Source: a virus (taxonomy: Duplodnaviria > Heunggongvirae > Uroviricota > Caudoviricetes). Taken from it: a stretch of 64,000 bases of DNA. Of this stretch, positions 4,301 through 62,512 are shown one piece after another (position 1 is the first letter of the stretch; every line of letters starts with the position of its first letter). The stretch is from the IMG/VR virus record IMGVR_UViG_2778261035_000005. One strand, 5' to 3'. A model generated the notes under the pieces. The model had not been told where the DNA came from. It searched no databases and saw only the letters and a list, made by a program, of their open reading frames with translations. The position numbers and the translations under genes are program-made.

Positions 4301-6049
4301 GCTGCAAACGCTAAACAATTGGAAGTGTTGCAGTCAACGGTAGAGGAAAGCTCCGCTGCCGTTGAAGAAATGAAAAAGACGGTTGCAGAGGTCGATCGTG
4401 CAAGTGCAGAACTGACTACGAACATTGAGGCTTTGGCCAAAACAAATATTGACCTGGCTCTTCGTCAAGATGAAGACCAGCACAAGCAGATGGTCAATAA
4501 CGCGAAGATCGCAACAACACAGAAAACCTTTGCTGATGATATGTCTGCAATGGCCACGAAGGTTGAGGAAATTCGCGTAGAAATTGGCGAAGACATTAAG
4601 GCCAGTATTCTGGAAGAGTCCACCGCTCGTGCCGATGGCGATGAAGCGTTGGCAAAGCGTGTCACTCAGCTGCAATCTAAGTTTGAAGGAGATATCAGCG
4701 CGGCGATTAGTACAGAGCAGGAGGCTCGTACATCTGCCGATGAAGCTCTGACGACACAGATCACTCAGCTTGAGTCGAAAGTAAGCAACGATATCGTCGC
4801 AGCTATTAAGGAAGAGCAAGAAGCCCGAGCAACGGAAGATTCGGCTCTGGCAAGCCAGATCACCCAACTTCAGGCAAAGGTTGATGATGATATTTCTGCT
4901 GCAATACGTAGTGAGCAGGAGGCCCGAGCAAGCGGGGACTCTGCGTTAGCCAAACAAATAAACCAGCTTCAGTCAAAGGTTGACGGTGATATATCCGCGG
5001 CCATCACTCAGGAGCAGGAGGCCAGAGCAAGTGCTGACCAGGCGCTCTCACGAGAAATTAACAGCCTGCGAGCACAAACCGGAACTGATATTGCCGCAGC
5101 GGTTGCTGTAGAGACAAAAGCAAGGACTGATGCCGATAGTGCATTGTCTACCCAGATTACGTCTCTTACAGCAAAAGCTAATGATCTCGAGGCGTCTCTT
5201 GCCAGAGAAACAACGGCTCGTGCAGATGGTGATACCGCTTTAACAAAAGAGGTTTCAAGTTTAAAAGCACAGACAGCGAAAGATATTAGTGCGGCCGTTG
5301 CAGTTGAAACGCAGGCTCGAACTGATGCTGACTCGGCGTTGTCGTCTCAGATCACCAAGCTGACCTCTCAATACAAAGAGGATATTAAAGCGGCTGTAGC
5401 AACCGAAACGAAAACGCGTACAGAGCAAGATGCTGCATTGGCGACTCAAATCACAAACTTAGAGTCTCAAACAGCAGCCAACATTTCTGCGGCGGTCACA
5501 ACTGAAACGACAGCGAGAACGCAGGCAGATAATGCTCTAAGTGGGCGAATCGATACTCTGAAAGCAGAGGTGGATGGAAATACCGCGACAATTCAACAGC
5601 AGGCAACAGCCATTGCTGATACCAACAAAAAAGTCTCAACCGCGTGGACGTTGAAAATGGAGACTTCAACGAGCGGAGGGCAGAAGTATGTTGCCGGTAT
5701 TGCGCTTGGTATCGACACCACCGGTCTTTCTCAGTTTTTGGTGCAGGCGGACAGATTTGGTTTGGTCAACTCTGTTAACGGGAAGATCACCACGCCATTT
5801 GTTATCGAAAACAGTATCGCCTATATGAATGGTGCGTATATCAAGGATGGCACAATCACCAATGCAAAAGTAGGCGATCTGCAATCTACCAATTTTGTTA
5901 GCGGTAGATCTGGATGGCGGTTCGGCAAAAATGGAACGCTTGAGATTAACGGTAATAGCGGCGGCAATGGGCGATTGGTCATAAATGGTCAGCGGATTGA
6001 CGTTTATGACGATAACAACGTCCTCCGAGTGAGAATTGGCCTTCTGTGA
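1322..6049 (+). CDS. Tip attachment / host specificity protein J-like (central tail fibre)
   Basis: About 1575 aa. N-terminus (FIAGAGGKKSSKSS...) resembles lambda J; long coiled-coil region with about ten tandem 33-aa repeats; distinct C-terminal domain. ATG at 1322 preferred over the TTG at 1316 in the ORF track. Confidence 0.85.
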   Translation: MEQFKKKKLPLFIAGAGGKKSSKSSSRTPVEADDTVNSRAMAAILDLLGEGVIGGLVNGARSIFIDDLPIVNEDGSSNFSGITWDFRDGSQDQTPMSGFDFVETPKSVNIQLKKTHYVTVSIDNDEADRVRVIMKFPSLRSIDKKTGDTNGTTVEYKFQIANGDSTFVDVVAEGEKSVGIKLTAKKTSVYYRSYELKLPKPGRAYKVRVVRITDDNSSQYLYNDTWVDSIGEIVDTPMNYPNSVLVGLKVNSEQFGSTMPSRSYLVRGLKIRVPSNYNESSNTYAGVWDGTFKLLSSSNPAWILFDLLTNARYGLGQYVSESMIDLGQLYQIGRYCDEEVDDGFGGKEKRFAINTQITSRQDAYRLIQDIAGAFRGMVFWAGGMVNIMQDSPSDPVMMFTNSNVKDGLFTYKGSARKDRPSVALVTYNNKEDGYKQNIEYVEDQDAMRRYGERKTEVVAFGCTSRGQAHRVGLWLLYTARMESDVITFTAGLDASFLMPGETVLIQNKYRAGKRNSGRIVAFTKNSVTLDAPVSLAKGGCFIRILNQEGKIVERDVLETGENITKVTFSKSLSSAETPVLNGVWTITEPDLEPMRVRIVNIAQGETPGSFDITAVENNPSKYEAIDNGATLIPQNTTVLDPTYSKPSNLQITEGTYLSSPGNLSVKLTATWEGKSPEYWISWRRSDENNVSNWQSARVTEEQYEIVNVAENGRYDFQLYAVSFNGKKTEIISTVYQVLGTMTPPDAPTSLTVVGDYRNVILNWVNPDSVDLDHINVYASQTNNLDTAKLIAESASTTFTHAGLGDSETWYYWVRASNKRGMLSPPNSNLGTEATTRDVLSFLTGKITSSELGQALLEDINSKVSQEAVDELNEHINQSVESLEGSVNDVKEDIAELDKQFSDNLADFEIKFNERSDALENAQTELKGEVSATIDKVNEAFEKIDATDAAIVEIENTVSEHDKALANTVEAIKAARDEAAALIAKESEARVEGDAANAKQLEVLQSTVEESSAAVEEMKKTVAEVDRASAELTTNIEALAKTNIDLALRQDEDQHKQMVNNAKIATTQKTFADDMSAMATKVEEIRVEIGEDIKASILEESTARADGDEALAKRVTQLQSKFEGDISAAISTEQEARTSADEALTTQITQLESKVSNDIVAAIKEEQEARATEDSALASQITQLQAKVDDDISAAIRSEQEARASGDSALAKQINQLQSKVDGDISAAITQEQEARASADQALSREINSLRAQTGTDIAAAVAVETKARTDADSALSTQITSLTAKANDLEASLARETTARADGDTALTKEVSSLKAQTAKDISAAVAVETQARTDADSALSSQITKLTSQYKEDIKAAVATETKTRTEQDAALATQITNLESQTAANISAAVTTETTARTQADNALSGRIDTLKAEVDGNTATIQQQATAIADTNKKVSTAWTLKMETSTSGGQKYVAGIALGIDTTGLSQFLVQADRFGLVNSVNGKITTPFVIENSIAYMNGAYIKDGTITNAKVGDLQSTNFVSGRSGWRFGKNGTLEINGNSGGNGRLVINGQRIDVYDDNNVLRVRIGLL
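4655..5635 (+). repeat. Tandem 99-bp (33-aa) coiled-coil repeats inside the J-like gene
   Basis: About ten successive units of the form DISAAI..EQEAR..AD.AL..QITQL.SKV read directly from the translation. Confidence 0.8.
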
Positions 6050-6142
6050 TAGTAGAAAAAAATATTTACATCGGTAAAAATAAGTAGGTACTTACTTTAT
6101 GGTGGGCAAGGATAGCCCACCAAATCAAGGAGCATATTCAAC

Positions 6143-9100
6143 ATGTGGTACAGGGAAGGTACTATCACATTTACACAGGGTAGCAATACCCTCGTTGGTG
6201 TTGGAACAGCCTGGAACGTAACAGCTAATGGTGTGTTGCCGGGCATGATCGTCATTGGCCCCGACAATAAGCTGTATGAGATCAAGCGCGTAACCAGTGA
6301 TACAAACATTGTTCTCTCAGAACCTTATACCGGCGAAACTCAGTCTGAAGTTCCGTGCCGAATCATTACGACCTATGAAGGTGACTTAACGCAGTTTAGC
6401 GCGCGCTTTACTGCACTAATGTCGCGTATGTCGGCTGATTCCAAGTCTATGCGCAGTTGGTTGACTGCTCTTGATGAGGTGACAATCGAGCGTGAAGACG
6501 GTACAGAAGTGACCGTTAAGCCGCTAATGCAGATCGTCAACGAGCACAACGAAAACGTTGAGTGGTATAAAAATAACACTGACGCGATTGATGCTGCTGG
6601 CGACAAAGCTCGTGAGGCGGCGGCCAGTGCTGCCGCAGCGGCAGAAAGCGCCAATACCGCTGGAGAAAAAGCATCTCAAGCGTCTCAAAGTGCATCCGCT
6701 GCGGCATCCTCACAAAGTGCTGCAAGTGCGAGTGCAACTGCTGCGAAAAGATCTGAAACGAACGCAGAGGCCGCCAAAGAAGCGGCAGCAGAATCAGCGT
6801 CTGTAGCATCGACCAAAGCATCGGAGGCTGCAATATCTGCGTCCAGTGCCTCTGCATCTAAGGATGCAGCCAAAGCATCAGAGACTAACGCTTCATCGAG
6901 TGCAAACGCGGCTGCATCATCGGCAACAGAAGCTGCAAATTCCTCTAAGGCAGCAAAAACGTCAGAGGCAAACGCAAAAGCATCTGAAACGGCAGCCGAA
7001 CAGAGTGCATCGTCTGCAAACAGTTCGAAATCTGCGGCAGAAGCGTCAGCAAGTGCAGCCTCAGCAAGTGCGGATAGTGCTTCATCAAGTGCAACAGCGG
7101 CAGGAAAATCTGCGGATAGCGCATTGTCATCCGCGACAACAGCTACCACAAAAGCGACAGAGGCGACGAGTCAGGCTACAGCTGCTAAAAATTCAGCATC
7201 GGCAGCAAAAACCTCTGAAACAAATGCAAAGACCTCAGAAGACAATGCTGCTTCCTCTAAGGCGGCAGCTGCTGAATCTGCAAGTTCTGCGTCTGCATCA
7301 GCCACCTCAGCATCCGCTTCAAAAGATGAGGCGACCAAGCAGGCATCAGCAGCGAAGAGCAGTGCTTCAACGGCATCCACGAAGGCAACAGAGGCGGCAG
7401 GCAGTGCGACAGCTGCATCTCAGAGCAAAACTGCTGCTGAATCCGCTGCGACCCGTGCGGAAGCTGCCGCTGATCGTGCTGAAGAGATTGCCGGTGCAGT
7501 TGCGATGGAAGACGCAAGCCTTACCACCAAAGGTGTTGTGAAACTTAGCAGTGCTGTCGACAGCACCAGTGAATCGCTGGCCGCAACGCCAAAAGCAGTT
7601 AAAGCAGCCAATGACAATGCGAATAGCAGGGTGCCATCTAACCGAAAAGTTAACGGTAAAGCACTGACTGCGGATATCACATTAACGCCGAAAGATATTG
7701 GTACTTTAAATTCAGTAACGATGTCTTTCTCTGGCGGGGCTGGGTGGTTCAAACTGGCTACGGTTACCATGCCACAAGCGAGTTCCATCGTTTACATCGC
7801 ATTGATTGGTGGCGCTGGTTACAACGTCGGCTCCCCACATCAGGCAGGCATTTCAGAACTGGTTCTACGAGCAGGCAATGGAAACCCCAAAGGGATTACA
7901 GGTGCTTTGTGGAAGCGTACAGCTGTCGGATTAACGAATTTCGCCTGGATCAACACATCCGGCGATACATATGATATTTACGTTGAGATTGGCAATTATG
8001 CGACGAGTGTAAATATCCATTGGGATTGTACTGCAAATGCGACAGTTTCTATTTATACATCGCCAACATATTCAGCGAGTAAGCCTTCCAGCGTTACCGA
8101 TGGTGTTGTTTATACGATGTATAGCACACATCAGAAACCGACGCCGTTAGATATTGGTGCACTGCCAACAACCGGAGGAACAGTTTCAGGTCCGTTGTCT
8201 GTTACTGGTGGGATCACCGGAACATTAAATGGTAATGCAAGTACAGCAACGAAATTACAGACGGCAAGATCTATCGGTGGAGTTGGTTTCGACGGTTCTG
8301 CCAATATTAATCTTCCAGGTGTAAACACTACGGGTAATCAGAACACCACTGGTAATGCCGCAACTGCTACAAAACTACAGACGGCAAGAACTATCGGCGG
8401 CGTGAGCTTTGATGGTACTGCAAATATTAATTTGCCAGGTGTTAATACGACTGGTAATCAGAATACAACAGGTAATGCGGCTACTGCTACGAAGTTGCAG
8501 ACTGCGCGTACTATTAATGGGGTGTCGTTTGACGGTTCGGCAAATATTTCCTTGTCACCAGCAAATATAGGTTGCCCAGCATCTCCTACTGGTTGGTTAA
8601 CTACAGGAAGTAATGGCGGAGCAATAACAACAGCCCAGTTAGTGACGTTATTGCAAAATAATGGAGCCTTTAACACAAAGTCATGGATTGCTCGATGTGC
8701 GTGGGCCTATGCCAATAGTGCAACCATACCAAATAGTGAAACTGGTTGTGGCGTTATTCCATTGGCAGGAGCTGTTATAGAGGTATTTAATAACGGTAGT
8801 AGCTCAAACAATTATACGATCCGTATAACAACGGCCACAACGACGAGTGTCTCTGGTGCTCTCACTAATGCGGAGTTTATCTATGTATTTAATGGCACAG
8901 ATTATTCTCCAGGATGGCGAAGAGTATATAACACGAAAAACAAACCAACAGCCTCTGATGTCGGTGCATTACCTCTTACCGGTGGTACATTATCTGGAGG
9001 TTTGACATCTTCTGGCGAGATCATTTCAAAATATGCAAATGGTTTCCGCATTGCTTACGGTAGCTTTGGGTTCTTTATCCGTAATGATGGGTCGAACACA

Positions 9101-10171: not shown

Positions 10172-10373
10172 TTTAGACATTATTTATATGGCTGTGAGGT
10201 TTAAAATGCGATCTCACAGCCGCAATCATAGGGATATATTAGTGAGTTACTAGATACGAATTTGAACAGCCGTTAAACGGTATATACATAGATAGGTAAG
10301 TATATACCTATAATTGAAAGGAGAAGTGTGATATAAATCCGCCATCCCGATTTGACTTTTCATGGAGGAAAAC

Positions 10374-11823: not shown

Positions 11824-12345
11824 TTATTCTTCGAACAATTTTTCGATAGATTTTGTAGGATAGAACAAAGAACGCTCGTTGTTACCAACCAGCTGGATAA
11901 AGCCTAAACTTTTATAAAACGCCTTGGCTTTGTCATTTAACGCCTCAACGAAAAGTCCATGAATGCCTACAGCAAGAGATGCATTGTACACAACGCGCAT
12001 TGCATGTGTTACAAGCATTGAGCCAAATCCTTGACCTTGAAGGGACTTGTCCAAAGCCAGCCTACCCAAAGTAACACTTGGAACATTCCGATAAGGTACC
12101 TTCTTTTGCTGGCTTCTTGAAGGTAAGGACTCCTTTTCAAAGCAGCTACCTGACAAAGTGTAATACCCTAACACTTTTGGTCTGCCTTCTTTCGTGCAAA
12201 GCACATAAGCGCGAAGAATTTTTCCCTCATGCTGCCTTTTTAAGTGGTTGGTTAAAAAGGCATTTAGTGATTCTTCACCGCAATCAAAACCATTCAAATC
12301 ATAATCTTTCTCTCCAGAGAAAATTTCTATCTTTATATTATCCAC
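11824..12345 (-). CDS. GNAT-family acetyltransferase toxin (TacT/AtaT/KacT-like)
   Basis: 173 aa with GNAT-toxin layout (FDCG...YYTLS...VTLGRLALD...QGFG...FY...GF); GTG start 7 nt after the stop of the upstream antitoxin gene. Confidence 0.8.
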   Translation of the reverse strand: MDNIKIEIFSGEKDYDLNGFDCGEESLNAFLTNHLKRQHEGKILRAYVLCTKEGRPKVLGYYTLSGSCFEKESLPSRSQQKKVPYRNVPSVTLGRLALDKSLQGQGFGSMLVTHAMRVVYNASLAVGIHGLFVEALNDKAKAFYKSLGFIQLVGNNERSLFYPTKSIEKLFEE

Positions 12346-12352
12346 GAGTAAA

Positions 12353-12622
12353 CTACTCCATGCTTTTCAGACGATCAGCAGCTCGTTTCAGCTTGTCGTT
12401 CGGTGCCGGAGGATTGCTTATAGCGTCCATAACCAGATTCCAGGATTCTTCATTCAGAACTAGTCTACGGTGTTGCTCTATAACTTTCACGGCACGTTCA
12501 GATGCACTGCTAACCATAAACTGAGTAATGCTCTGGTTAGACATTGCGGCAGCTTCCTCGATGATGCTTTTATCGTCATCGGTTAATCTCAAATCGATGC
12601 GCTGCTTTTTTAGTGCTGACAT
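12353..12622 (-). CDS. DUF1778-type ribbon-helix-helix antitoxin (TacA/AtaR-like)
   Basis: 89 aa immediately upstream of the GNAT toxin on the same strand; ATG at 12622 preceded by AGGAGG. Confidence 0.75.
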   Translation of the reverse strand: MSALKKQRIDLRLTDDDKSIIEEAAAMSNQSITQFMVSSASERAVKVIEQHRRLVLNEESWNLVMDAISNPPAPNDKLKRAADRLKSME

Positions 12623-12632
12623 GTATTCCTCC

Positions 12633-12660
12633 TGATGGCCGTGATGTAGGAAGGCCATCA
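12633..12660. promoter_or_regulatory. Palindrome TGATGGCC-N12-GGCCATCA, candidate toxin-antitoxin operator
   Basis: Perfect 8-bp inverted arms overlapping the RBS/promoter region of the antitoxin gene. Confidence 0.4.
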
Positions 12661-12890
12661 ATCTCCTCTGTTCAAACTGAGTTTTCGACTCAAAAATTAC
12701 TTTAAAAGGCTATAGCCCATTACGTGTGCATTATCAAATTGTGTACGGCATATCACCGTACTTGTAATATAGAGGTCATTGTTACTTTTTTCAACAGACA
12801 AATACAAGCTATGATTGCCAATTGTTAATCACAACCTACCATTTAACCTTTACACCGCAGCCGTAGGCATTTAGGCTATATCACATATAA

Positions 12891-12908
12891 GAAAACAAGT
12901 TGTTTCAG
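12891..12908 (+). promoter_or_regulatory. Conserved motif GAAAACAAnTTGTTT, copy upstream of parA
   Basis: One of four near-identical copies, each 12-33 bp upstream of a start codon. Confidence 0.45.
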
Positions 12909-12940: not shown

Positions 12941-13609
12941 ATGACCAAGATCTTTGTGGTTGGCGGCACAAAGGGCGGGCCTGGCAAATCCACCGTTGCC
13001 CAGCAAATTGCCGTTTGCCTGAAAGTCAAAAAGAAGAAGAAGGTTTATATCACTGATATAGATATTCAGCGCACGACAACAAGCTGGTGTGAAGACCGTC
13101 GACAGAACGAAGACCTTGAGCTGATTCCTTTTGCATACGTTCAGGATGACATCATTAAGCACCTAAAATCGCTTCAGGGTAGAGCTGAGTTTGTAGTGGT
13201 AGATGCTGGTGGCTTTGACTCCGAAATTCAGCGACAAGCGATGCTGATGGCCGACGTTATCATTATCCCGCTTCGTCCTAAGCGTCGTGATTTGAAATCT
13301 CTGCGTGACATCGATCCTATTATCGACAATGTTCGTAATGTAAACGATAAAGTGAAGGTCCGCGCGGTCATGAACCAGTGCCCGGCTTTGCCATCACAAG
13401 TGTCTCGCATTCTGGCGGCTAAAGAGATTGTCGAGACGTTTGGCATCGAGTCTGCGCCAGTCAATCTATATAACCGCAACGTCTACGATGATGCGGAAGA
13501 GTCTGGTCGTTCTATCTTTGAAATGACCGGTAGCGAGCGCGACAAAAAGGCGGAAGCCGAGTTTGAAGAATTTGTAGATTATCTGTTGAGTCTGGAGGAA
13601 GAAGAATAA
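12941..13609 (+). CDS. parA: ParA-type partition ATPase
   Basis: Deviant Walker A GGTKGGPGKST at the N-terminus; about 220 aa; followed by a small centromere-binding-type gene. Confidence 0.85.
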   Translation: MTKIFVVGGTKGGPGKSTVAQQIAVCLKVKKKKKVYITDIDIQRTTTSWCEDRRQNEDLELIPFAYVQDDIIKHLKSLQGRAEFVVVDAGGFDSEIQRQAMLMADVIIIPLRPKRRDLKSLRDIDPIIDNVRNVNDKVKVRAVMNQCPALPSQVSRILAAKEIVETFGIESAPVNLYNRNVYDDAEESGRSIFEMTGSERDKKAEAEFEEFVDYLLSLEEEE

Positions 13610-13968
13610 TGTCCATGAAAATGGGTGACCTAGCAAAGCGCAAAGAGCCTGATGCACCGGCCAAGAACACAACTCCTTTGCGCCAACCAGTCAGACCACA
13701 GGGACGCCCGACTCGTGGCAAAGAGAAAATTAAAAGCCGCACAATGTCACTGGAAGACGAATACTTCGAACTGCTGGAGATGATGAAGTTCATCCCTCGC
13801 TTCGAGAAATTCACCCGCTCTGATGTGATTCGTGCTGCTATTTTCCATCTTGCGGAGAAGACACCGCAGGAAATCGAGGACATCGTAAAGCTGAACGAGG
13901 CGATCACAGCTGCCGATGTCACGATGCGTACCGATGAAATTAAACGCGAGTTGATGAAGAAAGGTTAA
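13609..13968 (+). CDS. ParG-like small centromere-binding protein
   Basis: 119 aa with basic disordered N-terminus and ribbon-helix-helix-like C-terminus; start overlaps the parA stop. Confidence 0.5.
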   Translation: MSMKMGDLAKRKEPDAPAKNTTPLRQPVRPQGRPTRGKEKIKSRTMSLEDEYFELLEMMKFIPRFEKFTRSDVIRAAIFHLAEKTPQEIEDIVKLNEAITAADVTMRTDEIKRELMKKG

Positions 13969-14019: not shown

Positions 14020-14772
14020 ATGCATTCGTTAGTATTTGCATTTAAAAACATACTCAAGAATGTTATAAACATACTAGGGATGTTAAATATTTTTTTGTCT
14101 GTGAGGGTGAGGAGAAAAGATATAAAAGATAAATTAAAGGAACTTAACAAAGAAAAAGAACAATTAAAAAGCGAAGAAATTATTATTGATTTATACAAGA
14201 AAAAACTCGCATCTAGCAAGGGGAAAGCTAATGATAAAATCAAAGGAAAAATAATTCACTATATTATTGCTAGAGAGTTGGGGAATGATCCTGATAATGA
14301 AGATTTGCGACATAATCTTTTTACAAAGATAAAAGAATCAGAAGAACAGGTTGAAGTTCTGGTTCATCAAAGAGAAGTAAGTGAGCAGGCGAACAAAAAA
14401 GAAACGGTTGTCAATTTATTTTTATTGTATGAAAAAAATAAATTGTTTAAAGCTAAGGGGTTGGCTGTGTTTCTTATAGTTATAAACTTAATTATAGTTG
14501 CGACTCTCGATCTTCCAGCTTGGTCATTGATTATAAGTTTTTTTATTCTCTCTTTGATTATGTTGAAAGATCAGATACTTACTATTCGTGTCTCTAAAGG
14601 ATATTTTGGCACAAGTGCGTATGAAGCGGTTCAATTGCTTAAATTCATCAGAGAAAATTCAGACAAATTTGACTCAGATGATAATGACGGTAGCCCACGA
14701 CGGATATTGAATCCGAAGGGAACAACAAAAAAATCAGACAACCTATTCGATAAAGGGTGGCAAAATGTTTGA
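14020..14772 (+). CDS. Hypothetical membrane protein, AT-rich gene
   Basis: 250 aa; N-terminal TM helix, Lys/Glu-rich coiled-coil-like region, two central TM helices; GGAG RBS before the ATG at 14020; no recognisable family. Confidence 0.55.
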   Translation: MHSLVFAFKNILKNVINILGMLNIFLSVRVRRKDIKDKLKELNKEKEQLKSEEIIIDLYKKKLASSKGKANDKIKGKIIHYIIARELGNDPDNEDLRHNLFTKIKESEEQVEVLVHQREVSEQANKKETVVNLFLLYEKNKLFKAKGLAVFLIVINLIIVATLDLPAWSLIISFFILSLIMLKDQILTIRVSKGYFGTSAYEAVQLLKFIRENSDKFDSDDNDGSPRRILNPKGTTKKSDNLFDKGWQNV

Positions 14773-16108: not shown

Positions 16109-16117
16109 CTAATACTA

Positions 16118-16136
16118 GAAAACAATTTGTTTAAAA
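16118..16136 (+). promoter_or_regulatory. Conserved motif GAAAACAATTTGTTTAAAA, copy upstream of the helicase
   Basis: Identical to the copy at 43931-43949; ends 16 bp before the helicase ATG. Confidence 0.45.
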
Positions 16137-16151
16137 AACAAAGGAAAGCAC

Positions 16152-17492
16152 ATGACCGAACTTTGCCATACAGGACGCGGGCTGTCCGAAGAGTTTGATG
16201 AAGATTTCCAGAACAGACTGACGGCATATTTTTGTCGTGATCACGAGTTTCTTACTCGTGCGGGAGATCTGGTTGTGCCTAGCCAATTTGCCAATGCGGC
16301 CAATGCCATATTGGTTAATATGGTTTCGGGCTATTACCGTATGTACAAGAGCGCGCCTTCTTCATCTGCGATTCTGGATATGCTTAAGCGTGCGAAACGC
16401 GATAAGACCATCCGTGAGGAACTCTTCCCGGATGTTGTTGCTGCGTTTAAGCGCATCCTTGCAGAAAAATTGTCTGATACCTCGTACATGGTTGACCAGG
16501 TATCCACATTCGCAAAAAGTGTAGCGTTTGATGATGCTCTGATTAAAGCTGCTGAACTGAAAGAGAAGGGCGACTTTCAGGGGGCGATGGCAATCATGGC
16601 CAAGGTTCAGCAGATAGGCTCGAACGAAGCGACCGGAATCTATGACTACTACACCTCCGCAAGTGAGCGATTGAAAGCGCGTGAATATGAGGCTTCAGAG
16701 GAGTATGTGCCAAACAGCATTACAACTGGACTCCCTCTGCTTGATAGATTGCTGTACCAAAAAGGCTGGGCAAAGCGCGAAATGGTGCTCTTCATGGGTT
16801 TTGCTAAATCCGGTAAATCGACCGCAATGGGTGAGTTTTCCATAAACGCAACGCTTGCTGGCTACAATGTTCTGTATCTCTCGCTGGAGGTTCACACCAC
16901 CATTTTATCCGACCGTTTTGATGCAAGATTGTCGGAGACAGAAATGTCCAAGCTGGTGGAACGGCGCGATGAGGTTCATCGTAAGTTGGCAGAGTTGGGA
17001 GCCACGAAGGGGATTGGTAGTTTGTGGGTGGTTGAGCGTCCGTCAGGAAGTATGTCACCGGCAGATCTGGACCGTATGCTTAACAGCATGAAAGCCAACG
17101 GCATGGTGCCTGACATGGTTGTTGTCGACTACGCAGATTTGATGCGTGCCAGTTATGACCTTCGTGATGATCGCGCCAACATTCGTAGTATCTACACCGA
17201 TTTACGTGCTCTTTATGACAAGCATAACGTTGCTGGAATAACGGCATCGCAGACAAACCGTGAAGGTGGCGCGTCAGAAGTTGCCACAATGATGCACGCC
17301 GCCGACAACATCGAAAAAGTACGTATTGCTGACCTGGTAATAACGATCAACAAAACCGAAGAAGAAGAAGCGAAAGGAGAGGCTCGTCTCTACTTTGCTG
17401 GTTCGCGTAACCAGCAGGGAGGGATCAGCATTCGCGTTAAACAAAACCTCGAACAAATGCGCTTCATTGAGCGAATCTTAGACGTTACCTAA
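16152..17492 (+). CDS. DnaB-like replicative DNA helicase
   Basis: Walker A GFAKSGKST, Walker B-like VVVDYADLM, C-terminal RecA-like layout. Confidence 0.75.
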   Translation: MTELCHTGRGLSEEFDEDFQNRLTAYFCRDHEFLTRAGDLVVPSQFANAANAILVNMVSGYYRMYKSAPSSSAILDMLKRAKRDKTIREELFPDVVAAFKRILAEKLSDTSYMVDQVSTFAKSVAFDDALIKAAELKEKGDFQGAMAIMAKVQQIGSNEATGIYDYYTSASERLKAREYEASEEYVPNSITTGLPLLDRLLYQKGWAKREMVLFMGFAKSGKSTAMGEFSINATLAGYNVLYLSLEVHTTILSDRFDARLSETEMSKLVERRDEVHRKLAELGATKGIGSLWVVERPSGSMSPADLDRMLNSMKANGMVPDMVVVDYADLMRASYDLRDDRANIRSIYTDLRALYDKHNVAGITASQTNREGGASEVATMMHAADNIEKVRIADLVITINKTEEEEAKGEARLYFAGSRNQQGGISIRVKQNLEQMRFIERILDVT

Positions 17493-23298: not shown

Positions 23299-23474
23299 TG
23301 CTCGGCTGGATGATTGCATTTTTAGCAGTTGGTTTTTTCATCGGTATTGTGGTGATGTCCAGTTGCATTAATGACTACATTAAAAACGGTGTTATAGAAA
23401 GACGCGGTCGCATTTATCGCATTGTAGAAATAACCAACACCGTGAAGGAGATTAAGGATGATCGTATTAAGTAA
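23295..23474 (+). CDS. Small membrane protein (59 aa)
   Basis: Not in the ORF track (below 60 aa); single TM helix then basic tail; start overlaps the ligase stop. Confidence 0.4.
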   Translation: MMLGWMIAFLAVGFFIGIVVMSSCINDYIKNGVIERRGRIYRIVEITNTVKEIKDDRIK

Positions 23475-23673
23475 ACGGGAGAAGGAAACACTTTATGAAA
23501 TCAGTAAGTGGCCGGAGTTCCCTGAGTACTGGAAGCCTAAAACGCGGGCTAAGTTAGAGCGGTTAGGGTTGGTTGCAAACGTTTCTGAAACGAGGGGGTC
23601 GGCCAACTACCAGTTAACTGATAAAGGGAAAGTATTGCTACAGCAATTAGTAGAATCAGGAGCGTTAAAATGA
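23458..23673 (+). CDS. Hypothetical small protein (71 aa)
   Basis: ORF chained by overlapping start/stop codons to its neighbours. Confidence 0.4.
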   Translation: MIVLSKREKETLYEISKWPEFPEYWKPKTRAKLERLGLVANVSETRGSANYQLTDKGKVLLQQLVESGALK

Positions 23674-24888: not shown

Positions 24889-24963
24889 GATGGTGTAGCT
24901 CAGCGGTAGAGCAGTTGGCTGTTAACCAACTGGTCGGTGGTTCGAATCCACCCACCATCGCCA
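24889..24963 (+). tRNA. tRNA-Asn (anticodon GUU)
   Basis: Hand-folded cloverleaf: acceptor GATGGTG/CACCATC, D-arm GCTCAGCGGTAGAGC, anticodon loop CTGTTAA, T-loop TTCGAAT, 3-prime CCA. Confidence 0.8.
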
Positions 24964-24965
24964 AT

Positions 24966-25041
24966 GCCGGTTTAGCTCAGTTGGTAGAGCACCTGCCTTG
25001 TAAGCAGGATGTCAGCGGTTCGAATCCGTTAACCGGCACCA
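24966..25041 (+). tRNA. tRNA-Thr (anticodon UGU)
   Basis: Acceptor GCCGGTT/AACCGGC, D-arm GCTCAGTTGGTAGAGC, anticodon loop CTTGTAA, T-loop TTCGAAT, 3-prime CCA. Confidence 0.8.
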
Positions 25042-26806: not shown

Positions 26807-27080
26807 TTCAGCTAGTTTAAAGCTGTCTTGCCGGTTCTAGTGTGTCAACCTCACAAAGCCATTTCTGCTTAGTAACCAAACACATTAAATAGGTAATGAC
26901 TCACCTATTCATTTTAGCTATAGTCACGACACTTACTCACTTGAAAGGACTCTATATGGGAAACAAACGTAAACAGGCGCGTCGCGCAGCTCGTCAGGCA
27001 GTGAAGTCAAAGCCACGCATCCACGGCTACGAAATTGACACAATCATCGTTAATGAACAGCAGTTGCACGAGGTGAAGTG

Positions 27081-27510: not shown

Positions 27511-28065
27511 TCAATCTTCCCTTTGTTTTGGGTAGTGTTGTGTTCGTATCGCATAGGAAGCTCCGTCATTTAAATAAGTTAGGCCACGCTCTTGTGTAAA
27601 TCTCTTCACATATCTCTTGTATGTGGCCATCAGTTCTTCGCGTTCTGCCGCAAAGAATAAAATCTGTATGCCTTCATTGTCGGCAACTTTGAGCATTAAG
27701 TCAACTAAAGTACCGTAAAGGTATTGAAGTTCACCTAAAGTAAGATTAAAAGACCCTTCGGGTTTGGCAAATACGTTAATTGGCTCTTCCGCTCCAAGAG
27801 CGACATTCTGGAGCTGTTCTTGCTGCCTGTCAAGTTGAATCATGTCCACAAAACTAACGACAGATACACACAACCCATAAACATCAGCACCTAACATATT
27901 ATGCATAGTTTCTGCGGCAACAGGATCTAAAGAAGGAGGGCAAAAGACTAAACGGTATCTAGCCTTACGAGCTTCATTGCCAGAGAAAACAAAGTCTATA
28001 TCTAAATATGACAGATCACCCGGCAATGAAGCCAAACCAGGTGTAACCAACTTATGCAAGTGCAT
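27511..28065 (-). CDS. Hypothetical protein
   Basis: 184-aa ORF on the opposite strand; no recognisable motif; a 47-aa ORF (27413-27553, minus) overlaps its 3-prime end. Confidence 0.45.
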   Translation of the reverse strand: MHLHKLVTPGLASLPGDLSYLDIDFVFSGNEARKARYRLVFCPPSLDPVAAETMHNMLGADVYGLCVSVVSFVDMIQLDRQQEQLQNVALGAEEPINVFAKPEGSFNLTLGELQYLYGTLVDLMLKVADNEGIQILFFAAEREELMATYKRYVKRFTQERGLTYLNDGASYAIRTQHYPKQRED

Positions 28066-28332
28066 CTGTCTCGAATCCCTCTTTATTAGTATAAGTTGTC
28101 TTATTGTACCCTACCAAACGTTTATATGCATTGTTATGTATTATTTTGATTTTCAATATTACCTCCTAGAACGAAGGGTAGATTTCAAAAAACGCACCCT
28201 CAATGATTCCATACCTACTATGTATGGAATCATTACTGAAAATGAGTTACTTTTACTCTTGATCCTATAAGAATCTATGCCTAATATACTGTTTACTTAT
28301 ACAGTGCATCGGCGTAACTCGGTGATTGTCAT

Positions 28333-29436
28333 ATGAAAAATAGCTTTGACAGAGCACGCGCTGCGGAGAACACCTCAAAAGAGGCGATTGAGTATCTCGA
28401 AAGAGCATCTCAAATGCAGGCCGTTATGATCTCCCAGGTCAGCAATGACATGAGATTCTCGGACGCATTCATGTTATTCACTCGCTTATCTCTGCTGATA
28501 ACAAGACGTCGGCCAGAGATCGCTGTTCATTGTATTTTGATACATGTTTTGCCGCACATTGCCGATGTAAAAGTAAGTGATATTAATAGGTTCATGGTGA
28601 ACCAACTGGTCAACCCACTAATACTGGATGGCAAAATTGTTATGGGTCGCCGCGTTTTCTCTCTGATGAAGCAGTTCCTCAGCTGGTGCGCCTTCCAGGG
28701 GATGATCGACGTGTCACCGTTAAACGATATGTCACTTAACAAAGTTGCCGGTGGCGCAAAGCCCACACCTCGCGAGCGGAAGCTAACCGACGCAGAGGTA
28801 TGGGTGTTCTGGAATATATGGGACTACTTCAATGTGTGTGCTGGTACAAAATGGGCGGCCAGGCTATGTCTTGTATCCGCAAGACGACCTGACGAAGTAC
28901 TGCGGGCTAAAAAAAGTGAGTTCAACCTCCAGCGTGGGGTTTGGAATCAAGGCAAGAGAAACAAATCAGCCCGTGAGCATTCTCTGCCTTTAAGCACATT
29001 AATGCGCACATGCATTGAAGAGTTATTCGAATATGGTAAAGGCAGCCAGTGGCTTGTGCCTTCGAATAAAAAAATCGGGAAAGATCTTCCGATGTCTAAA
29101 GTGGCAATAGCCCAGGCATTACGCCGTATCCTGGAACGACCAGAACTGATGGAGCTTGAGCCATTTACACCACGAGATTTGCGTCGTACTGCGCGTAGTT
29201 ACTTCCCAGCATTAGGCATAAGCCAGGAGGTATCACGTAAAATCATGAACCACAGTCTTGAGGGGATAGATCGGGTCTACGACCGGCACGATTATATGGA
29301 CGAGATGCGAGACGCCTTAGAAAGTTTCTCGACGTACATCGCATCAATCGTAGAGCAACCGGATTTAGACGAAATTGACCACAAATTCAAGGGAGATCGT
29401 CTATCGACAGAGCTTATTCGTGTAAATTTTTCATAG
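28333..29436 (+). CDS. Tyrosine-type site-specific recombinase / integrase
   Basis: C-terminal catalytic region with R...H..R...Y arrangement (RRPDE, TPRDLRRTARS, HSLEGIDRVYDRHDY). Confidence 0.7.
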   Translation: MKNSFDRARAAENTSKEAIEYLERASQMQAVMISQVSNDMRFSDAFMLFTRLSLLITRRRPEIAVHCILIHVLPHIADVKVSDINRFMVNQLVNPLILDGKIVMGRRVFSLMKQFLSWCAFQGMIDVSPLNDMSLNKVAGGAKPTPRERKLTDAEVWVFWNIWDYFNVCAGTKWAARLCLVSARRPDEVLRAKKSEFNLQRGVWNQGKRNKSAREHSLPLSTLMRTCIEELFEYGKGSQWLVPSNKKIGKDLPMSKVAIAQALRRILERPELMELEPFTPRDLRRTARSYFPALGISQEVSRKIMNHSLEGIDRVYDRHDYMDEMRDALESFSTYIASIVEQPDLDEIDHKFKGDRLSTELIRVNFS

Positions 29437-29817
29437 AGACTTTATGGCCTCAACAACCTTTTGTGATGCGCCTTTCTCTTTACCGAATCGCTCGTTATAT
29501 GCAGCAAGAACCTGTTTTTCGTCCTCGTTAAGAGGAGCAGTGCCTTCTTTGTATAAAAATGCTGCGAGTTCGGGTTGGCGTTCTTCCAGCACCATCATCA
29601 TAAGACGACTTGGCTCAATACCCAGTGCCAGCGCCAGCGGACGAACCTTATCGATAGGCAAAGGAATTTTGCCGCTTTTAATTAAAGAAAGGTTGTTGGC
29701 GTTTTTATACCCAATTGTTTTGGCTATCTGGGCCTGGCTCATAGGTGAGGATTCAATCAACCCTGCGATAAAAGCAGCGTAGCGACTTTCTATAAATTCA
29801 ATCTTGTTGTCAGACAT
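29431..29817 (-). CDS. XRE-family helix-turn-helix regulator
   Basis: HTH segment MSQAQIAKTIGYKNANNLSLIKSGK; convergent with and overlapping the recombinase 3-prime end. Confidence 0.65.
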   Translation of the reverse strand: MSDNKIEFIESRYAAFIAGLIESSPMSQAQIAKTIGYKNANNLSLIKSGKIPLPIDKVRPLALALGIEPSRLMMMVLEERQPELAAFLYKEGTAPLNEDEKQVLAAYNERFGKEKGASQKVVEAIKSL

Positions 29818-30379
29818 TGTTACAACCTTTGCGCGTTCAATTCTCTCTGGTAAGTGCTTACCGATATTACATCAAAGGTTAGGGTTGTAAAGCTATTATC
29901 ATTTTTTTCGGCAGGCACTTTAAAGACCGGACAAAGACCAATGCATGGTGAAAAACTAGCCCCAAATAGGTAAGAAAATTAACTTGCATCTAATATGGAT
30001 GTATTCAGTATTGATATAAATTTTAGTAGTATTCCTTACAATAGTATAAGTAAGAATGGATTGATTGAATGAACACCACTATTTCCAGCCTAATAGCTCT
30101 TGAGATCGGACACGTACAAAAATTAGCTGATGAGTGTGTAGCTGACATCCTCACCGAGCTACCGAATGAGCAGATTGAGGTTGGTGTGAATGACACAACT
30201 GGCTTTATATTCGAACTTAACAACAAACGCTTCACGCTTATCAATACCGGCTCCGGGTCTTTAGCCGTCAGAACCTGTTAATCCCTCTTCTACCTGCGCG
30301 AATGGCTTAGTTCCCTGTTCGCGCAGTGCTACATTAAACACACTAGTAAATAATTTGTTTTCATAACAAAGGATTAGCC

Positions 30380-43039: not shown

Positions 43040-43870
43040 ATGAAGAAAGGTTTACTTGCAGTTGCTCTGGCGGCTATTTGCACAATGGGTCTTACTGGCT
43101 GTGATCGCGTGGAGCCTGGATACGTTGGCATCAAAGTAAACAAATTAGGTGAAGACAAAGGGATCGGTGAAGTGGTTGGCGTTGGTCGCCAATGGACAGG
43201 TCTTAACACCGAACTTTACGTATTCCCGACCTTCAAACAAATGAAGACCTACGACGAGCCGTTCACATTCCAGATGAGTGACGGTACTGCTATTGGTCAC
43301 AAAATTGGCGTTGCGTATCTGGTTAATCGTGACAAGGTAACGACGGTGTTCCAGACCTATCGCAAAGGCGTAGACGATATCACCGAATCAGATCTGCGTC
43401 AGAAAATTGCCGACTCTCTAAACCGTTTGGCCAGCCGTATGACCACTGACTCATTTATCGACGGTGGTAAGGCGCAATTGCTGGACAACGCACTGAAAGA
43501 TATTCAGAAAGAGATGTCTCCGGTTGGTATTGAGGTACTGAGCCTGTCATGGGTTGGAAAGCCTGATTACCCAAAAACCGTCATTGAATCTATCAACGCC
43601 AAAGTAACGGCTAACCAGCGTACTCTGCAACGTCAGCAGGAAGTTGAACAGCGTAAAGCTGAGGCGAATATGCTACGTGAACAGGCTAATGGTGAAGCTG
43701 ATGCTATCCGTGCTCGTGCGCAAGCAGAAGCCGACGCCATTCGTCTGCGCGGTGAAGCTCTGCGTCAAAACCCGAACGTTATGGAGCTGGAAGCCATCAA
43801 TAAATGGAATGGCCAGTTACCGCAGTACATGACTCAAGGGGCTAACACTCCTTTCATTACAGTGAAATAA
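43040..43870 (+). CDS. SPFH/band-7 (stomatin/prohibitin-like) lipoprotein
   Basis: Signal peptide with lipobox LTGC; band-7-like core; Ala/Glu/Arg-rich coiled-coil tail (EADAIRARAQAEADAIRLRGEAL). Confidence 0.65.
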   Translation: MKKGLLAVALAAICTMGLTGCDRVEPGYVGIKVNKLGEDKGIGEVVGVGRQWTGLNTELYVFPTFKQMKTYDEPFTFQMSDGTAIGHKIGVAYLVNRDKVTTVFQTYRKGVDDITESDLRQKIADSLNRLASRMTTDSFIDGGKAQLLDNALKDIQKEMSPVGIEVLSLSWVGKPDYPKTVIESINAKVTANQRTLQRQQEVEQRKAEANMLREQANGEADAIRARAQAEADAIRLRGEALRQNPNVMELEAINKWNGQLPQYMTQGANTPFITVK

Positions 43871-43886: not shown

Positions 43887-43911
43887 AGGCGTCCAGTTGG
43901 ACGCCTTTTTT
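43887..43911 (+). terminator. Rho-independent terminator (AGGCGTCC family)
   Basis: AGGCGTCCA-GT-TGGACGCCT followed by TTTTTT. Confidence 0.75.
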
Positions 43912-43930
43912 ATCGCAATTATCTTATTAA

Positions 43931-43949
43931 GAAAACAATTTGTTTAAAA
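43931..43949 (+). promoter_or_regulatory. Conserved motif GAAAACAATTTGTTTAAAA
   Basis: Identical to the copy at 16118-16136; ends 12 bp before the ATG at 43962. Confidence 0.45.
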
Positions 43950-43961: not shown

Positions 43962-44387
43962 ATGACAGTTATTAAGAAACTCTACGATGCCGCAAACGCG
44001 GCTCTGGATGTTATTGATGATGAAGTATCAAAAGGCTTTCCTGAACCTGATTGGGCGCATCAGCTACGAAACGCTATCGCAGAAATGACCCCATCAGATC
44101 CAACCCCCGACGAGACAGACTGGCAGCGATTCATCCGTATGTACGCTCAGGAAATAGGTCCAACGCCAACGGCAGAGCAGGCAATGCTGCTGAAATACTT
44201 CAAAGAGGCGGGAGAGGATTTACCAATTGATGACTCAGCATATTGGTTCCACTGCGCATGGCGTAAGTATGACGTGATATTCACACAAGGCATGGGAAGC
44301 AAAGATATGGTTGTGTGGCATCTACTCCATATAGACACAGCCGTTGACAGAGTTATTGAACAGTTTTTCCCTAACCAAGAAGATTGA
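43962..44387 (+). CDS. Hypothetical protein
   Basis: 141-aa ORF; no recognisable motif. Confidence 0.45.
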   Translation: MTVIKKLYDAANAALDVIDDEVSKGFPEPDWAHQLRNAIAEMTPSDPTPDETDWQRFIRMYAQEIGPTPTAEQAMLLKYFKEAGEDLPIDDSAYWFHCAWRKYDVIFTQGMGSKDMVVWHLLHIDTAVDRVIEQFFPNQED

Positions 44388-52919: not shown

Positions 52920-52992
52920 TTTCATTGATAGGTAAGTGCTTATCTATTAACATGGGCCACTATATTTAGTGGCCCTCTTTATTTGGTGATAC

Positions 52993-55308: not shown

Positions 55309-55368
55309 CATATGGTGGGGGATATCCCCACCTTCTCTTTGATTTGTAAGCCTTGTTTAAACACATAA

Positions 55369-55387
55369 GATAACAACTTGTTTAAAC
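55369..55387 (+). promoter_or_regulatory. Conserved motif GATAACAACTTGTTTAAAC, copy upstream of nrdB
   Basis: Variant of the AACAAnTTGTTT palindrome; a half-site (CCTTGTTTAAACAC) lies at 55351-55364. Confidence 0.4.
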
Positions 55388-62329: not shown

Positions 62330-62512
62330 CGTTCCCCTACTGAAAATAAAGCCCATAGAGAGCTTTATAGTGCTGGGTAAGCCAATCACATACCCAGCAC
62401 CACAAAAACGCGCCAGAGAGCTTCTTGTTCGCATTTCTGGCGCGTTTTATTTGATTACCATACATAAAATCAAATGCAAAAATAGGTAATCACTTACCTA
62501 TCGAGAAAGAAG

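What the first reader, a model, noticed from the sequence alone, without database searches (positions are those of the whole stretch)
12891..12908. Conserved palindromic motif GAAAACAAnTTGTTTAAA upstream of four genes
Near-identical copies at 12891-12908 (parA), 16118-16136 (helicase), 43931-43949 (gene at 43962) and 55369-55387 (nrdB); two copies are identical over 19 bp. The core AACAA-N-TTGTT is an inverted repeat, and the motif ends only 12-33 bp before the start codons, overlapping the expected 5-prime UTR. That placement suits an operator for a dimeric regulator or a translational operator more than a basal promoter element.
Basis: seen in the sequence. Interest (0 to 1): 0.5.

Follow-up and report, generated by a model that had tools for sequence, protein, structure and literature searches.

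The report
Repeated operator in phage-plasmid promoters
A 13-19 bp palindrome (AGAAAACAA-N-TTGTTT) sits at a fixed place in about 18 promoter/leader regions of an SSU5-type phage-plasmid and is unchanged in all its enterobacterial relatives, so it is most likely the DNA binding site of one conserved plasmid-encoded repressor whose identity is still open.

Summary
The window is 64 kb of an E. coli SSU5-like phage-plasmid that matches NZ_AP022089.1. The core AACAANTTGTT occurs 4 times in the window against 0.16 expected. A fifth good copy lies at 30345-30363. The whole 110-kb element has about 18 strong copies, all intergenic although 85% of it is coding. The same sequence sits at orthologous sites in SSU5, Cyrano, Klebsiella pJN2-26, Y. 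pestis pMT1 and more distant lineages.

The core begins 12-14 nt after TGn extended -10 elements, centre about +14. In the other orientation it ends 16 nt before them, centre about -38. Some promoters have both.

The two arms tolerate mismatches roughly symmetrically, no compensatory changes occur, and the RNA folds no better than shuffles. I therefore read it as a DNA operator rather than an RNA hairpin. Downstream genes are silent in a Cyrano lysogen.

My best candidate binder is ParA's small partner protein, whose putative DNA-reading segment is invariant. A conserved FljA-like tandem Hfq-fold protein is the most novel alternative, acting on the 5'-UTR. Binding is untested.

The parts
12890..12908 (+). 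Motif copy 1, AGAAAACAAGTTGTTTCAG (core 12893-12905), 32 nt before the parA ATG at 12941.
   Evidence: In a four-lineage alignment of the parA upstream region, the only conserved block is TTTAGGCTATA..ATAAGAAAACAnnTTGTTT.
16117..16135 (+). Motif copy 2, AGAAAACAATTTGTTTAAA, 16 nt before the DnaB-like helicase ATG at 16152.
   Evidence: The orthologous site is kept in Cyrano, SSU5 (degenerate), pJN2-26 and L167, with the central base varying freely.
30345..30363 (+). It lies 17 nt before the ATG of the CobT-like gene at 30380. An extended -10-like TGCTACATT (30327-30335) lies 12 nt upstream of the core.
   Evidence: The orthologous sites in SSU5, pJN2-26 and pMT1 also have a TGn -10-like element 11-12 nt upstream.
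43930..43948 (+). Motif copy 4, AGAAAACAATTTGTTTAAA, 13 nt before the ATG at 43962 (DUF7238 protein).
   Evidence: It is directly preceded by a terminator-like hairpin at 43887-43906.
55368..55386 (+). Motif copy 5, AGATAACAACTTGTTTAAA, 29 nt before the nrdB ATG at 55416. The A-to-T change creates TAAGAT, a possible -10 hexamer, 16 nt after TTGTAA.
   Evidence: The TAAGATAA variant is kept in SSU5, Cyrano and pJN2-26. A terminator-like hairpin at 55314-55332 precedes it. The -35/-10 reading is my own inspection and falls below the scan tool's threshold.
14433..14451 (+). Weak match AAAAAATAAATTGTTTAAA inside an annotated ORF. Probably not functional.
   Evidence: score 16.9, coding.
12941..13609 (+). 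parA, a 222-aa Walker-type partition ATPase without an N-terminal DNA-binding domain. It is the first gene of the operon behind copy 1.
   Evidence: The homologue in L167 hits Pfam CbiA, MipZ and ParA.
13609..13968 (+). ParA partner protein, 119 aa: best candidate for the protein that binds the motif. It has a disordered basic N-terminus followed by helices. The pattern IKSRTMSLEDEYF...FTRSDVIRAAI looks like a ribbon-helix-helix (my inference).
   Evidence: The segments RPQGRPTRGK..IKSRTMS.EDE and FTRSDVIRAAI are invariant even in lineages only 48% identical overall, and those lineages keep the motif. The fold is not confirmed.
29431..29817 (-). XRE-like HTH protein, 128 aa (equals CYRAN_45, 'putative repressor').
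43887..43906 (+). Terminator-like hairpin plus T-run immediately upstream of copy 4.
55314..55332 (+). Terminator-like hairpin between nrdA and copy 5.

Best explanation
The motif is a double-stranded DNA operator. Its full form is the 19-bp palindrome AGAAAACAA-N-TTGTTTTCT, with an invariant 13-bp core. It is shared by about 18 sigma-70-type promoters of the early, replication, nucleotide-metabolism, partition and terS (late) operons of SSU5-type phage-plasmids.

In the best promoters it covers about +5 to +20, just after a TGn extended -10. Some of these also carry a second, inverted copy over the -35 region, at about -44 to -29. A two-fold symmetric protein bound there would block RNA polymerase. 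This would keep these operons off in the plasmid-prophage state, or shut them off after early expression.

What is shown:
- the positions of the copies and their restriction to intergenic DNA
- the roughly symmetric tolerance of mismatches in the two arms
- the invariance of the motif across lineages
- the silence of downstream genes in a related lysogen

What is inferred:
- the transcription start sites
- repression rather than activation
- the identity of the binder

My best candidate for the binder, at about one chance in three, is the 119-aa protein encoded directly after parA. By analogy with ParG and omega of type Ib partition systems, it would autoregulate parA through copy 1 and act on the dispersed copies as a global repressor. 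The stated confidence is for the DNA-operator/repressor reading as a whole.
For: Enrichment and conservation:
- The core occurs 4 times in the window against 0.16 expected.
- The whole element has 12 exact cores and about 18 strong sites, all intergenic in a genome that is 85% coding.
- The same sequence sits at orthologous sites in SSU5, Cyrano, pJN2-26, pMT1, 46 IMG/VR loci and distant lineages.

Fixed geometry:
- In 22 cases over four genomes the core starts 11-14 nt after a TGn extended -10-like element, mostly 13.
- In 11 cases it ends 16 nt before one.
- Paired copies lie 51 bp apart around TGAGATAAT.

DNA rather than RNA:
- Among 223 unique site contexts the arms tolerate mismatches in a roughly mirror-image pattern. 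C-to-T in the left arm occurs 9 times and G-to-A in the right arm 9 times. Positions 2 and 5 of each arm hardly vary. Single uncompensated changes are common.
- RNA folds of the five window leaders are no better than shuffles in four cases, with z-scores from +0.2 to -1.2, and -2.4 in the fifth.
- No Rfam family matches.

Expression in the Cyrano lysogen (median 9.8; PMC9928086 S1 Table):
- terS 7.1, helicase 21, CobT-like 7.8, CYRAN_58 5.7, nrdB 12.9.
- parA and its partner are moderately on, at 50 and 89, as expected for an autoregulated operon.

For the ParA partner as binder:
- The motif is the only palindrome in the one conserved block upstream of parA across four lineages.
- Its putative DNA-reading segment is invariant down to 48% overall identity, matching an invariant site.
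Against: - No transcription start site or binding data exist for this family in what I could search.
- Four of the five window copies have no canonical -35/-10 pair by the scan tool, so the promoter assignment there is weak.
- The fixed spacings partly reflect common descent of duplicated promoter cassettes, because the spacer sequences are also similar. They are therefore not fully independent evidence.
- Only one full palindrome lies upstream of parA, whereas type Ib centromeres usually have repeat arrays.
- pMT1 has lost this ParA and partner but keeps intact motif copies in front of strong promoters.
- In the Acinetobacter relative the repeats upstream of parA are local, not dispersed.
- An operator that never varies among related temperate elements is unusual for an immunity system.
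Confidence: 0.62

Rival explanations
1. RNA operator. The transcribed motif, lying in the 5'-UTR right next to the Shine-Dalgarno sequence, is bound by the family's conserved FljA-like protein. That protein blocks translation and destabilises the mRNAs of lytic genes, as Salmonella FljA does to fliC mRNA.
For: The protein:
- A 174-aa protein (record 5581-6105, minus strand, outside the window) matches Pfam Flag1_repress with E = 1.5e-84.
- It is present, nearly full-length, in 822 of the plasmids searched. These include 341 from Klebsiella and 62 from Yersinia, where a fliC target is unlikely (that these hosts lack a usable fliC target is my knowledge).
- It lies on the strand expressed in lysogeny.

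The target:
- All class A copies are co-oriented with transcription and end 10-37 nt before the ATG.
- The Salmonella and Citrobacter fliC 5'-UTR carries CAAGTTGT 27 nt before the ATG. This is the same core in the same place relative to the Shine-Dalgarno sequence.
- The Acinetobacter relative lacks both the motif and an FljA homologue.
- pMT1 keeps both the protein and the motif.
- FljA blocking fliC mRNA translation is cited in PMC2652032.
Against: - About a quarter of the copies sit in inverted orientation at about -38 of promoters or between convergent genes, away from any Shine-Dalgarno sequence.
- The mirror-image tolerance of the two arms fits a two-fold symmetric DNA binder, not single-stranded RNA recognition.
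- There is no stable or covarying hairpin.
- The E. coli fliC UTR lacks the core.
- The shared 7 specified bases in one UTR have a chance probability of roughly 0.004 and were noticed after the fact.
Confidence: 0.15
2. DNA operator for another conserved protein of the element. Candidates are the small winged-helix-like proteins (the 88-aa protein just upstream of the terS motif pair; the 71-aa EarA-like protein at window 23458-23673; the 216-aa protein next to the FljA-like gene) and the two ParB_N-domain proteins. The ParB_N proteins would act like KorB of IncP plasmids on its 13-bp palindromes.
For: - These proteins are conserved at 66-94% identity in SSU5, Cyrano and pJN2-26, and most are also in pMT1.
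- From my knowledge, KorB operators are 6-1-6 palindromes present about 12 times per plasmid at or near promoters, the same architecture as here.
- Two ParB_N proteins are encoded in the operon that ends just before the terS motif pair.
Against: - No DNA-binding domain was detected beyond ParB_N, apart from a weak EarA hit.
- PHROGs gives 'unknown function' for all of them.
- They are on the lytic strand and at background level in the lysogen. They could therefore only act as lytic-phase shut-off factors and cannot explain silence in lysogeny.
Confidence: 0.17
3. The XRE-like prophage repressor (window 29431-29817) binds the motif.
For: - It is present in 865 plasmids with the same host distribution as the family.
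- It is expressed about 10-fold over background in the lysogen.
- It is absent from the lytic isolate SSU5.
- Its recognition-helix region IGYKNaNnLSLIKsG is nearly invariant.
Against: - Its own 250-bp upstream region has no copy of the motif.
- That region instead carries a conserved GGTAAGTGCTTACC, which is itself dispersed with 9 or more copies per genome.
- The Acinetobacter homologue (40% identity) sits beside two copies of AGTCAGTACTGACT. That sequence shares 5 of 7 half-site positions with GGTAAGT.ACTTACC and none of the character of the finding's motif.
- The second palindrome varies between lineages while this motif does not.
Confidence: 0.05
4. The roughly 30-bp block is a phage-specific promoter, or an activator site for a phage-encoded sigma factor or polymerase, or a sequence-specific translational enhancer.
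For: - Conservation extends about 15 bp upstream of the palindrome and is oriented.
- Several copies follow terminator-like hairpins with no canonical sigma-70 promoter in between.
Against: - No polymerase or sigma gene is annotated or was detected among the proteins checked.
- The best copies follow excellent extended -10 elements, which need no activator.
- The palindrome would lie downstream of the start site, an unusual place for an activator.
- A generic AU-rich enhancer would not be an invariant dyad.
Confidence: 0.04

Closest known systems
Omega (pSM19035) and ParG (TP228): type Ib partition centromere-binding proteins that are also transcriptional repressors
   Same: - A small ParA is followed by a small protein with a disordered N-terminus.
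- The binding site lies upstream of the par operon (PMC5016525).
- From my knowledge, omega also represses several other promoters through short adjacent repeats 7 bp apart. This is comparable to the 7-8 bp spacing between the half-sites here.
   Different: - Here there are about 18 dispersed single palindromes, not repeat arrays.
- Most sit in phage lytic promoters.
- The ribbon-helix-helix fold and DNA binding of the partner protein are not shown.
KorB operators of IncP plasmids
   Same: From my knowledge, these are 13-bp palindromes with a 6-1-6 layout, present in about a dozen copies. Many overlap the -35 region near -39 and together form one plasmid-wide regulon.
   Different: - KorB is a ParB-family HTH protein.
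- Its sequence is TTTAGCSGCTAAA.
- KorB also acts at a distance.
- No KorB-like HTH domain was detected here.
Phage P1 C1 operators and mycobacteriophage L5 'stoperators'
   Same: From my knowledge, these are many copies of one repressor site scattered over a (plasmid-)prophage genome, in front of separate lytic operons and in short intergenic gaps, oriented with transcription.
   Different: - Those sites are asymmetric and belong to the immunity repressor, which varies between related phages.
- This site is a palindrome and is invariant across the whole enterobacterial family.
N15 dispersed centromere sites (IR1-4)
   Same: A phage-plasmid whose partition-protein binding palindromes are separate sites in the genome rather than one array (PMC7205306).
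   Different: - N15 has four sites bound by a type Ia SopB.
- Here there are about 18 sites, tied to promoters, and the partner protein is of a different type.
FljA-fliC 5'-UTR control in Salmonella
   Same: - An FljA-family protein is encoded by the element.
- The target lies in the leader just upstream of the Shine-Dalgarno sequence.
- Both share the core CAAnTTGT.
   Different: - FljA has one known target, whereas here there are many.
- The symmetry and the copies at -38 point to DNA.
- No binding data exist.

Membership tests
Repressor operator overlapping a sigma-70 promoter | The site lies within the polymerase footprint at a fixed distance from the -10 element. | tested here: met
   The core starts 11-14 nt after TGn -10-like elements in 22 cases and ends 16 nt before them in 11 cases, over four genomes. 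In the window this holds clearly only for copy 3 (TGCTACATT). Copies 1, 2, 4 and 5 have only weak -10-like hexamers.
Repressor operator overlapping a sigma-70 promoter | Dyad symmetry with equivalent half-sites. | tested here: met
   The mismatch profile is roughly mirror-image over 223 unique contexts. L4 C-to-T occurs 9 times against R3 G-to-A 9 times. L2/R5 show 0/0 and L5/R2 show 1/0. One pair is unequal, L3/R4 at 1 against 10, and comes largely from one orthologous site.
Repressor operator overlapping a sigma-70 promoter | A protein binds the site and lowers transcription. | not testable with these tools
   Only indirect evidence: the downstream genes are at background level in the Cyrano lysogen RNA-seq.
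Type Ib partition operator/centromere (ParG/omega type) | A small Walker-type ParA without a DNA-binding domain, followed by a small partner gene. | tested here: met
   ParA is 222 aa and the partner 119 aa, with overlapping stop and start codons. The homologue hits Pfam CbiA and ParA.
Type Ib partition operator/centromere (ParG/omega type) | The partner has a flexible N-terminus followed by a beta-alpha-alpha ribbon-helix-helix. | tested here: inconclusive
   [not shown]
Type Ib partition operator/centromere (ParG/omega type) | An array of direct or inverted repeats upstream of the par operon. | tested here: not met
   There is one full palindrome in the conserved block upstream of parA. Only loose half-sites lie nearby, and only in one lineage.
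FljA-type RNA operator | An FljA-family (PF03614) protein is encoded by the same element. | tested here: met
   E = 1.5e-84 over the full length. The protein is present in 831 plasmids. It lies outside the window.
FljA-type RNA operator | The target lies in the 5'-UTR next to the ribosome-binding site. | tested here: inconclusive
   This holds for about three quarters of the copies if the predicted start sites are right. It does not hold for the copies at -38 or between convergent genes.
FljA-type RNA operator | Specific RNA binding and translational repression. | not testable with these tools
   [not shown]
Structured cis-regulatory RNA | A stable fold kept by compensatory changes, or a match to a known family. 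| tested here: not met
   Fold z-scores are +0.11, -0.57, -1.22, -2.37 and +0.20. Single uncompensated arm changes are common. Rfam finds only two tRNAs in the window.
Immunity operator of the XRE-like prophage repressor | Copies lie in the repressor gene's own control region. | tested here: not met
   There is no copy in 29818-30068. A different conserved palindrome lies there.

The most novel reading that the evidence does not exclude
The transcribed motif is the native target of the FljA-like tandem Hfq-fold protein. In this reading, SSU5-type phage-plasmids silence about a dozen lytic mRNAs after transcription through one shared leader element. The Salmonella flagellar phase-variation repressor FljA would then be a domesticated copy of this phage silencer that recognises the same CAAnUUGU element in the fliC leader.
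Probability: 0.15. Interest if true: 0.8.

Novelty: new member of a known kind. Interest (0 to 1): 0.5.

Why it matters
SSU5-type phage-plasmids are common: more than 800 records in PLSDB, from E. coli, Klebsiella, Salmonella, Enterobacter and Y. pestis pMT1. From my knowledge, some carry ESBL or carbapenemase genes. How they hold their lytic genes silent is essentially unknown, and I found no paper describing this motif.

The motif defines one regulon that ties together early, replication, nucleotide-metabolism, partition and packaging operons. Together with the second palindrome, it suggests two layers of control.

It also gives a precise, cheap handle for experiments. One 19-bp probe and four or five candidate proteins would find the switch. 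If the ParA partner is the binder, plasmid partition and lytic silencing would be coupled through one protein. If the FljA-like protein is the binder, the origin of a textbook flagellar regulator would be explained.

Tried and rejected
- Stable RNA hairpin or known RNA family: rejected.
- XRE-like repressor as binder: unlikely. I first doubted it because SSU5 lacks it and the Klebsiella copy is only 56% identical. I then revived it because it is near-universal in plasmids and its recognition helix is conserved. I finally set it aside because its own control region carries a different dispersed palindrome, and the Acinetobacter homologue goes with a related form of that other palindrome.
- Host transcription factor: I compared the site from memory with the consensus sites of LexA, CRP, FNR, Fur, PurR, Cra, KdgR, NrdR, IHF, PhoP, the 434 repressor and others. 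None fits in both sequence and spacing. This is a memory-based check only.
- Phage RNA polymerase promoter: no polymerase gene was seen, and strong extended -10 elements precede the best copies.
- Looking for a lineage where the motif has changed, so that it could be matched to a changed protein: every enterobacterial lineage examined keeps the same motif. The Acinetobacter relative lacks it altogether. No co-variation test was therefore possible.
- pMT1 as a natural deletion: it lacks ParA and its partner but keeps most other candidates and the sites, and it is too recent to be decisive.
- Primary FljA papers and a 2026 preprint on an SSU5-like plasmid could not be read.

Full report
**What the window is.** Megablast places the window in E. 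coli plasmid pWP4-S18-ESBL-07_2 (NZ_AP022089.1, 110,167 bp). The 8-kb query matched at 100%. Window base 1 is record base 28103, and the two differ at 8 positions in 64 kb. The element is an SSU5-like phage-plasmid. It is 97% identical to Escherichia phage Cyrano and 82% to Salmonella phage SSU5 in the queried region, and 725 plasmid records match. Nearly all lytic genes are on the + strand. Plasmid and lysogeny functions are mostly on the - strand.

**The observation.** The core AACAANTTGTT has 4 hits against 0.16 expected by shuffling. The 19-mer with up to 3 mismatches has 5 hits against 0.14 expected. A fifth good copy lies at 30345-30363, before the CobT-like gene.

I assembled the whole record and scanned it with a weight matrix.
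- There are 12 exact cores and about 18 strong sites.
- Every one is intergenic, although 85% of the element is coding.
- Conservation extends about 15 bp upstream.

**Conservation.** The same sequence sits at orthologous positions (parA, helicase, CobT-like, nrdB, terS, early genes) in every enterobacterial relative examined:
- SSU5
- Cyrano
- Klebsiella pJN2-26
- Y. pestis pMT1
- 46 IMG/VR loci
- two more distant lineages

The central base varies freely (G 64, A 63, T 53, C 43) while the arms hardly change. In the parA upstream region of four lineages the only conserved block is TTTAGGCTATA..ATAAGAAAACAnnTTGTTT.

**Anatomy.** There are two settings.
- Class A: the extended arm AGA faces upstream. 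The core begins 11-14 nt, mostly 13, after a TGn extended -10-like element such as TGCGATAAT or TGGTATTAT. A ribosome-binding site and ATG follow within 10-37 nt.
- Class B: the same site is in the opposite orientation (…TTGTTTTCT). It often comes right after a GC-rich terminator-like hairpin, and it ends 16 nt before a TGn -10-like element.
- Some promoters have both, 51 bp apart, reading AAAACAAnTTGTTTTCT-N31-AGAAAACAAnTTGTTTT around TGAGATAAT.

If transcription starts about 7 nt after the -10, the sites are centred near +14 and -38. Both lie inside the polymerase footprint. This start position is inferred, not measured.

In the window only copy 3 has a clear TGn -10. Copies 4 and 5 follow terminator-like hairpins, and the scan tool finds no canonical promoter at four of the five sites. 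At nrdB the conserved A-to-T variant creates TAAGAT, 16 nt after TTGTAA. I read this as a weak promoter overlapping the site.

**DNA or RNA?** Three results favour DNA.
1. Among 223 unique site contexts the two arms tolerate mismatches in a roughly mirror-image pattern, and single uncompensated changes are frequent. In particular G-to-A, which would give a C·A mismatch in RNA, is as common as C-to-T, which would give a G·U pair.
2. The leaders do not fold better than shuffled sequence in four of five cases, and the palindrome is not consistently the predicted hairpin. Rfam finds nothing.
3. Class B copies and copies between convergent genes are not next to any ribosome-binding site.

One caveat applies. 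Many promoter cassettes are evidently paralogous, so the fixed spacings are not fully independent observations.

**What it does.** Published RNA-seq of the Cyrano lysogen (PMC9928086, S1 Table) has a median of 9.8.
- Genes behind the motif are at background: terS 7.1, CobT-like 7.8, CYRAN_58 5.7, nrdB 12.9, helicase 21.
- The parA operon is moderately on, at 50-89.
- Most of the strongly expressed genes are minus-strand genes.

The early genes have near-consensus extended -10 promoters, which should fire without an activator. A site at +14 or -38 is therefore best read as a repressor site.

**Who binds it?**

*The XRE-like protein (29431-29817).* It is near-universal in the plasmid forms (865 records). 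It is absent from the lytic isolate SSU5, is expressed in the lysogen, and has a conserved recognition helix. Several results count against it as the binder.
- Its own control region has no copy of the motif.
- That region instead carries a conserved GGTAAGTGCTTACC, which turned out to be a second dispersed palindrome with 9 or more copies per genome.
- A distant Acinetobacter relative has an XRE homologue at 40% identity and 11 copies per 34 kb of AGTCAGTACTGACT. Two of those lie in the XRE gene's own upstream region.
- That sequence shares 5 of 7 half-site positions with GGTAAGT·ACTTACC.

So the XRE protein most likely owns the second palindrome.

*The FljA-like protein.* It matches Pfam Flag1_repress at E = 1.5e-84. 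It is kept in 831 plasmids, including 341 from Klebsiella, a host I regard, from my own knowledge, as non-flagellate. Its model is a tandem Hfq-like fold. The Salmonella fliC leader carries CAAGTTGT at -27. This makes an RNA-operator reading attractive, but it conflicts with the symmetry and with the class B copies.

*The 119-aa protein after parA.*
- It has a disordered basic N-terminus followed by helices.
- Its sequence pattern looks to me like a ribbon-helix-helix.
- It is 90-92% identical in SSU5 and Klebsiella.
- The segment that would read DNA stays invariant in lineages only 48% identical overall, and those lineages keep the motif.
[quoted passage not shown] The motif is the only palindrome in the conserved part of that region.

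Three weaknesses remain. The fold is not confirmed. There is no repeat array. pMT1 has lost this pair yet keeps the sites.

*Other conserved small proteins and the two ParB_N proteins* remain possible.

**Verdict.** The finding is real and part of a family-wide regulon. The operator idea is right in kind. The proposed XRE binder is probably wrong. The actual binder is unresolved, and the ParA partner is my first choice.

Dispersed operators in plasmid-prophages are a known kind of system: P1 C1 sites, L5 stoperators, and the KorB and omega regulons. This one appears undescribed in what I could search. It is unusual in being invariant across the whole enterobacterial family.

Noticed in passing
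window 10295-10308, 26892-26905, 29849-29862, 52931-52944, 62485-62498; also record NZ_AP022089.1 8490, 13781, 92801, 97779: A second dispersed palindrome, (A)TAGGTAAGTrCTTACCTA(T), core GGTAAG-NN-CTTACC. It lies before the holin, nrdA and methyltransferase genes, at the terL|portal junction, and about 30 nt upstream of the XRE-like repressor gene. pJN2-26 has 13 or more copies and SSU5 10 or more. A divergent lineage has a shortened form, TAGGTAACTACCTA. Several copies are followed by T-runs, so a role as a terminator or RNA-processing hairpin is not excluded.
   Followed up: partly
[not shown]
   Followed up: partly
L166 (Acinetobacter baumannii plasmid NZ_CP031445.1, 78308-112216): A distant SSU5-like phage-plasmid with the same gene order. 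It has 11 copies per 34 kb of AGTCAGTACTGACT (10 intergenic), placed in promoter regions much as the palindromes are here. It also carries its own hfq-like gene next to the helicase gene.
   Followed up: partly
record NZ_AP022089.1 11811-11893 (outside the window); SSU5 56-134: The terS (late operon) leader has two motif copies 25 bp apart. They are followed by a terminator-like hairpin, GAGCGC-N6-GCGCTC plus a T-run, just before the terS ribosome-binding site. This suggests late genes need read-through or antitermination.
   Followed up: no
window 27511-28065 (minus strand): This 184-aa protein has no Pfam hit and is identical to CYRAN_43. It is by far the most highly expressed plasmid gene in the Cyrano lysogen, at 7084 against a median of 9.8. 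It is absent from SSU5, pJN2-26 and pMT1.
   Followed up: no
window 28333-30281: The module of integrase, XRE-like repressor and a 70-aa protein is missing from the lytic isolate SSU5 but present in about 865 plasmids. SSU5 may therefore be a natural repressor-deletion (virulent) derivative.
   Followed up: partly
window 16126-16145 and 30354-30372: In the helicase and CobT-like leaders the right arm TTTGTTT is followed 3-5 nt later by AACAAAGGA. This is a third half-site abutting the ribosome-binding site, and it pairs with the right arm in the predicted RNA fold.
   Followed up: no
window 24889-25038: Two tRNA genes (Rfam scores 75.5 and 76.5 bits) lie between the ligase region and the glutaredoxin gene.
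   Followed up: no
window 11824-12661 (minus strand): A GNAT-toxin / DUF1778-antitoxin pair (KacAT-like) lies directly upstream of parA, transcribed divergently from it. It is strongly expressed in the Cyrano lysogen, at 344 and 592.
   Followed up: no
SSU5 (L005) about 43680-43700, record 93680-93700: The spacer of one early promoter in SSU5 contains TTATCCACA. I recognise this, from memory, as a perfect DnaA-box consensus.
   Followed up: no
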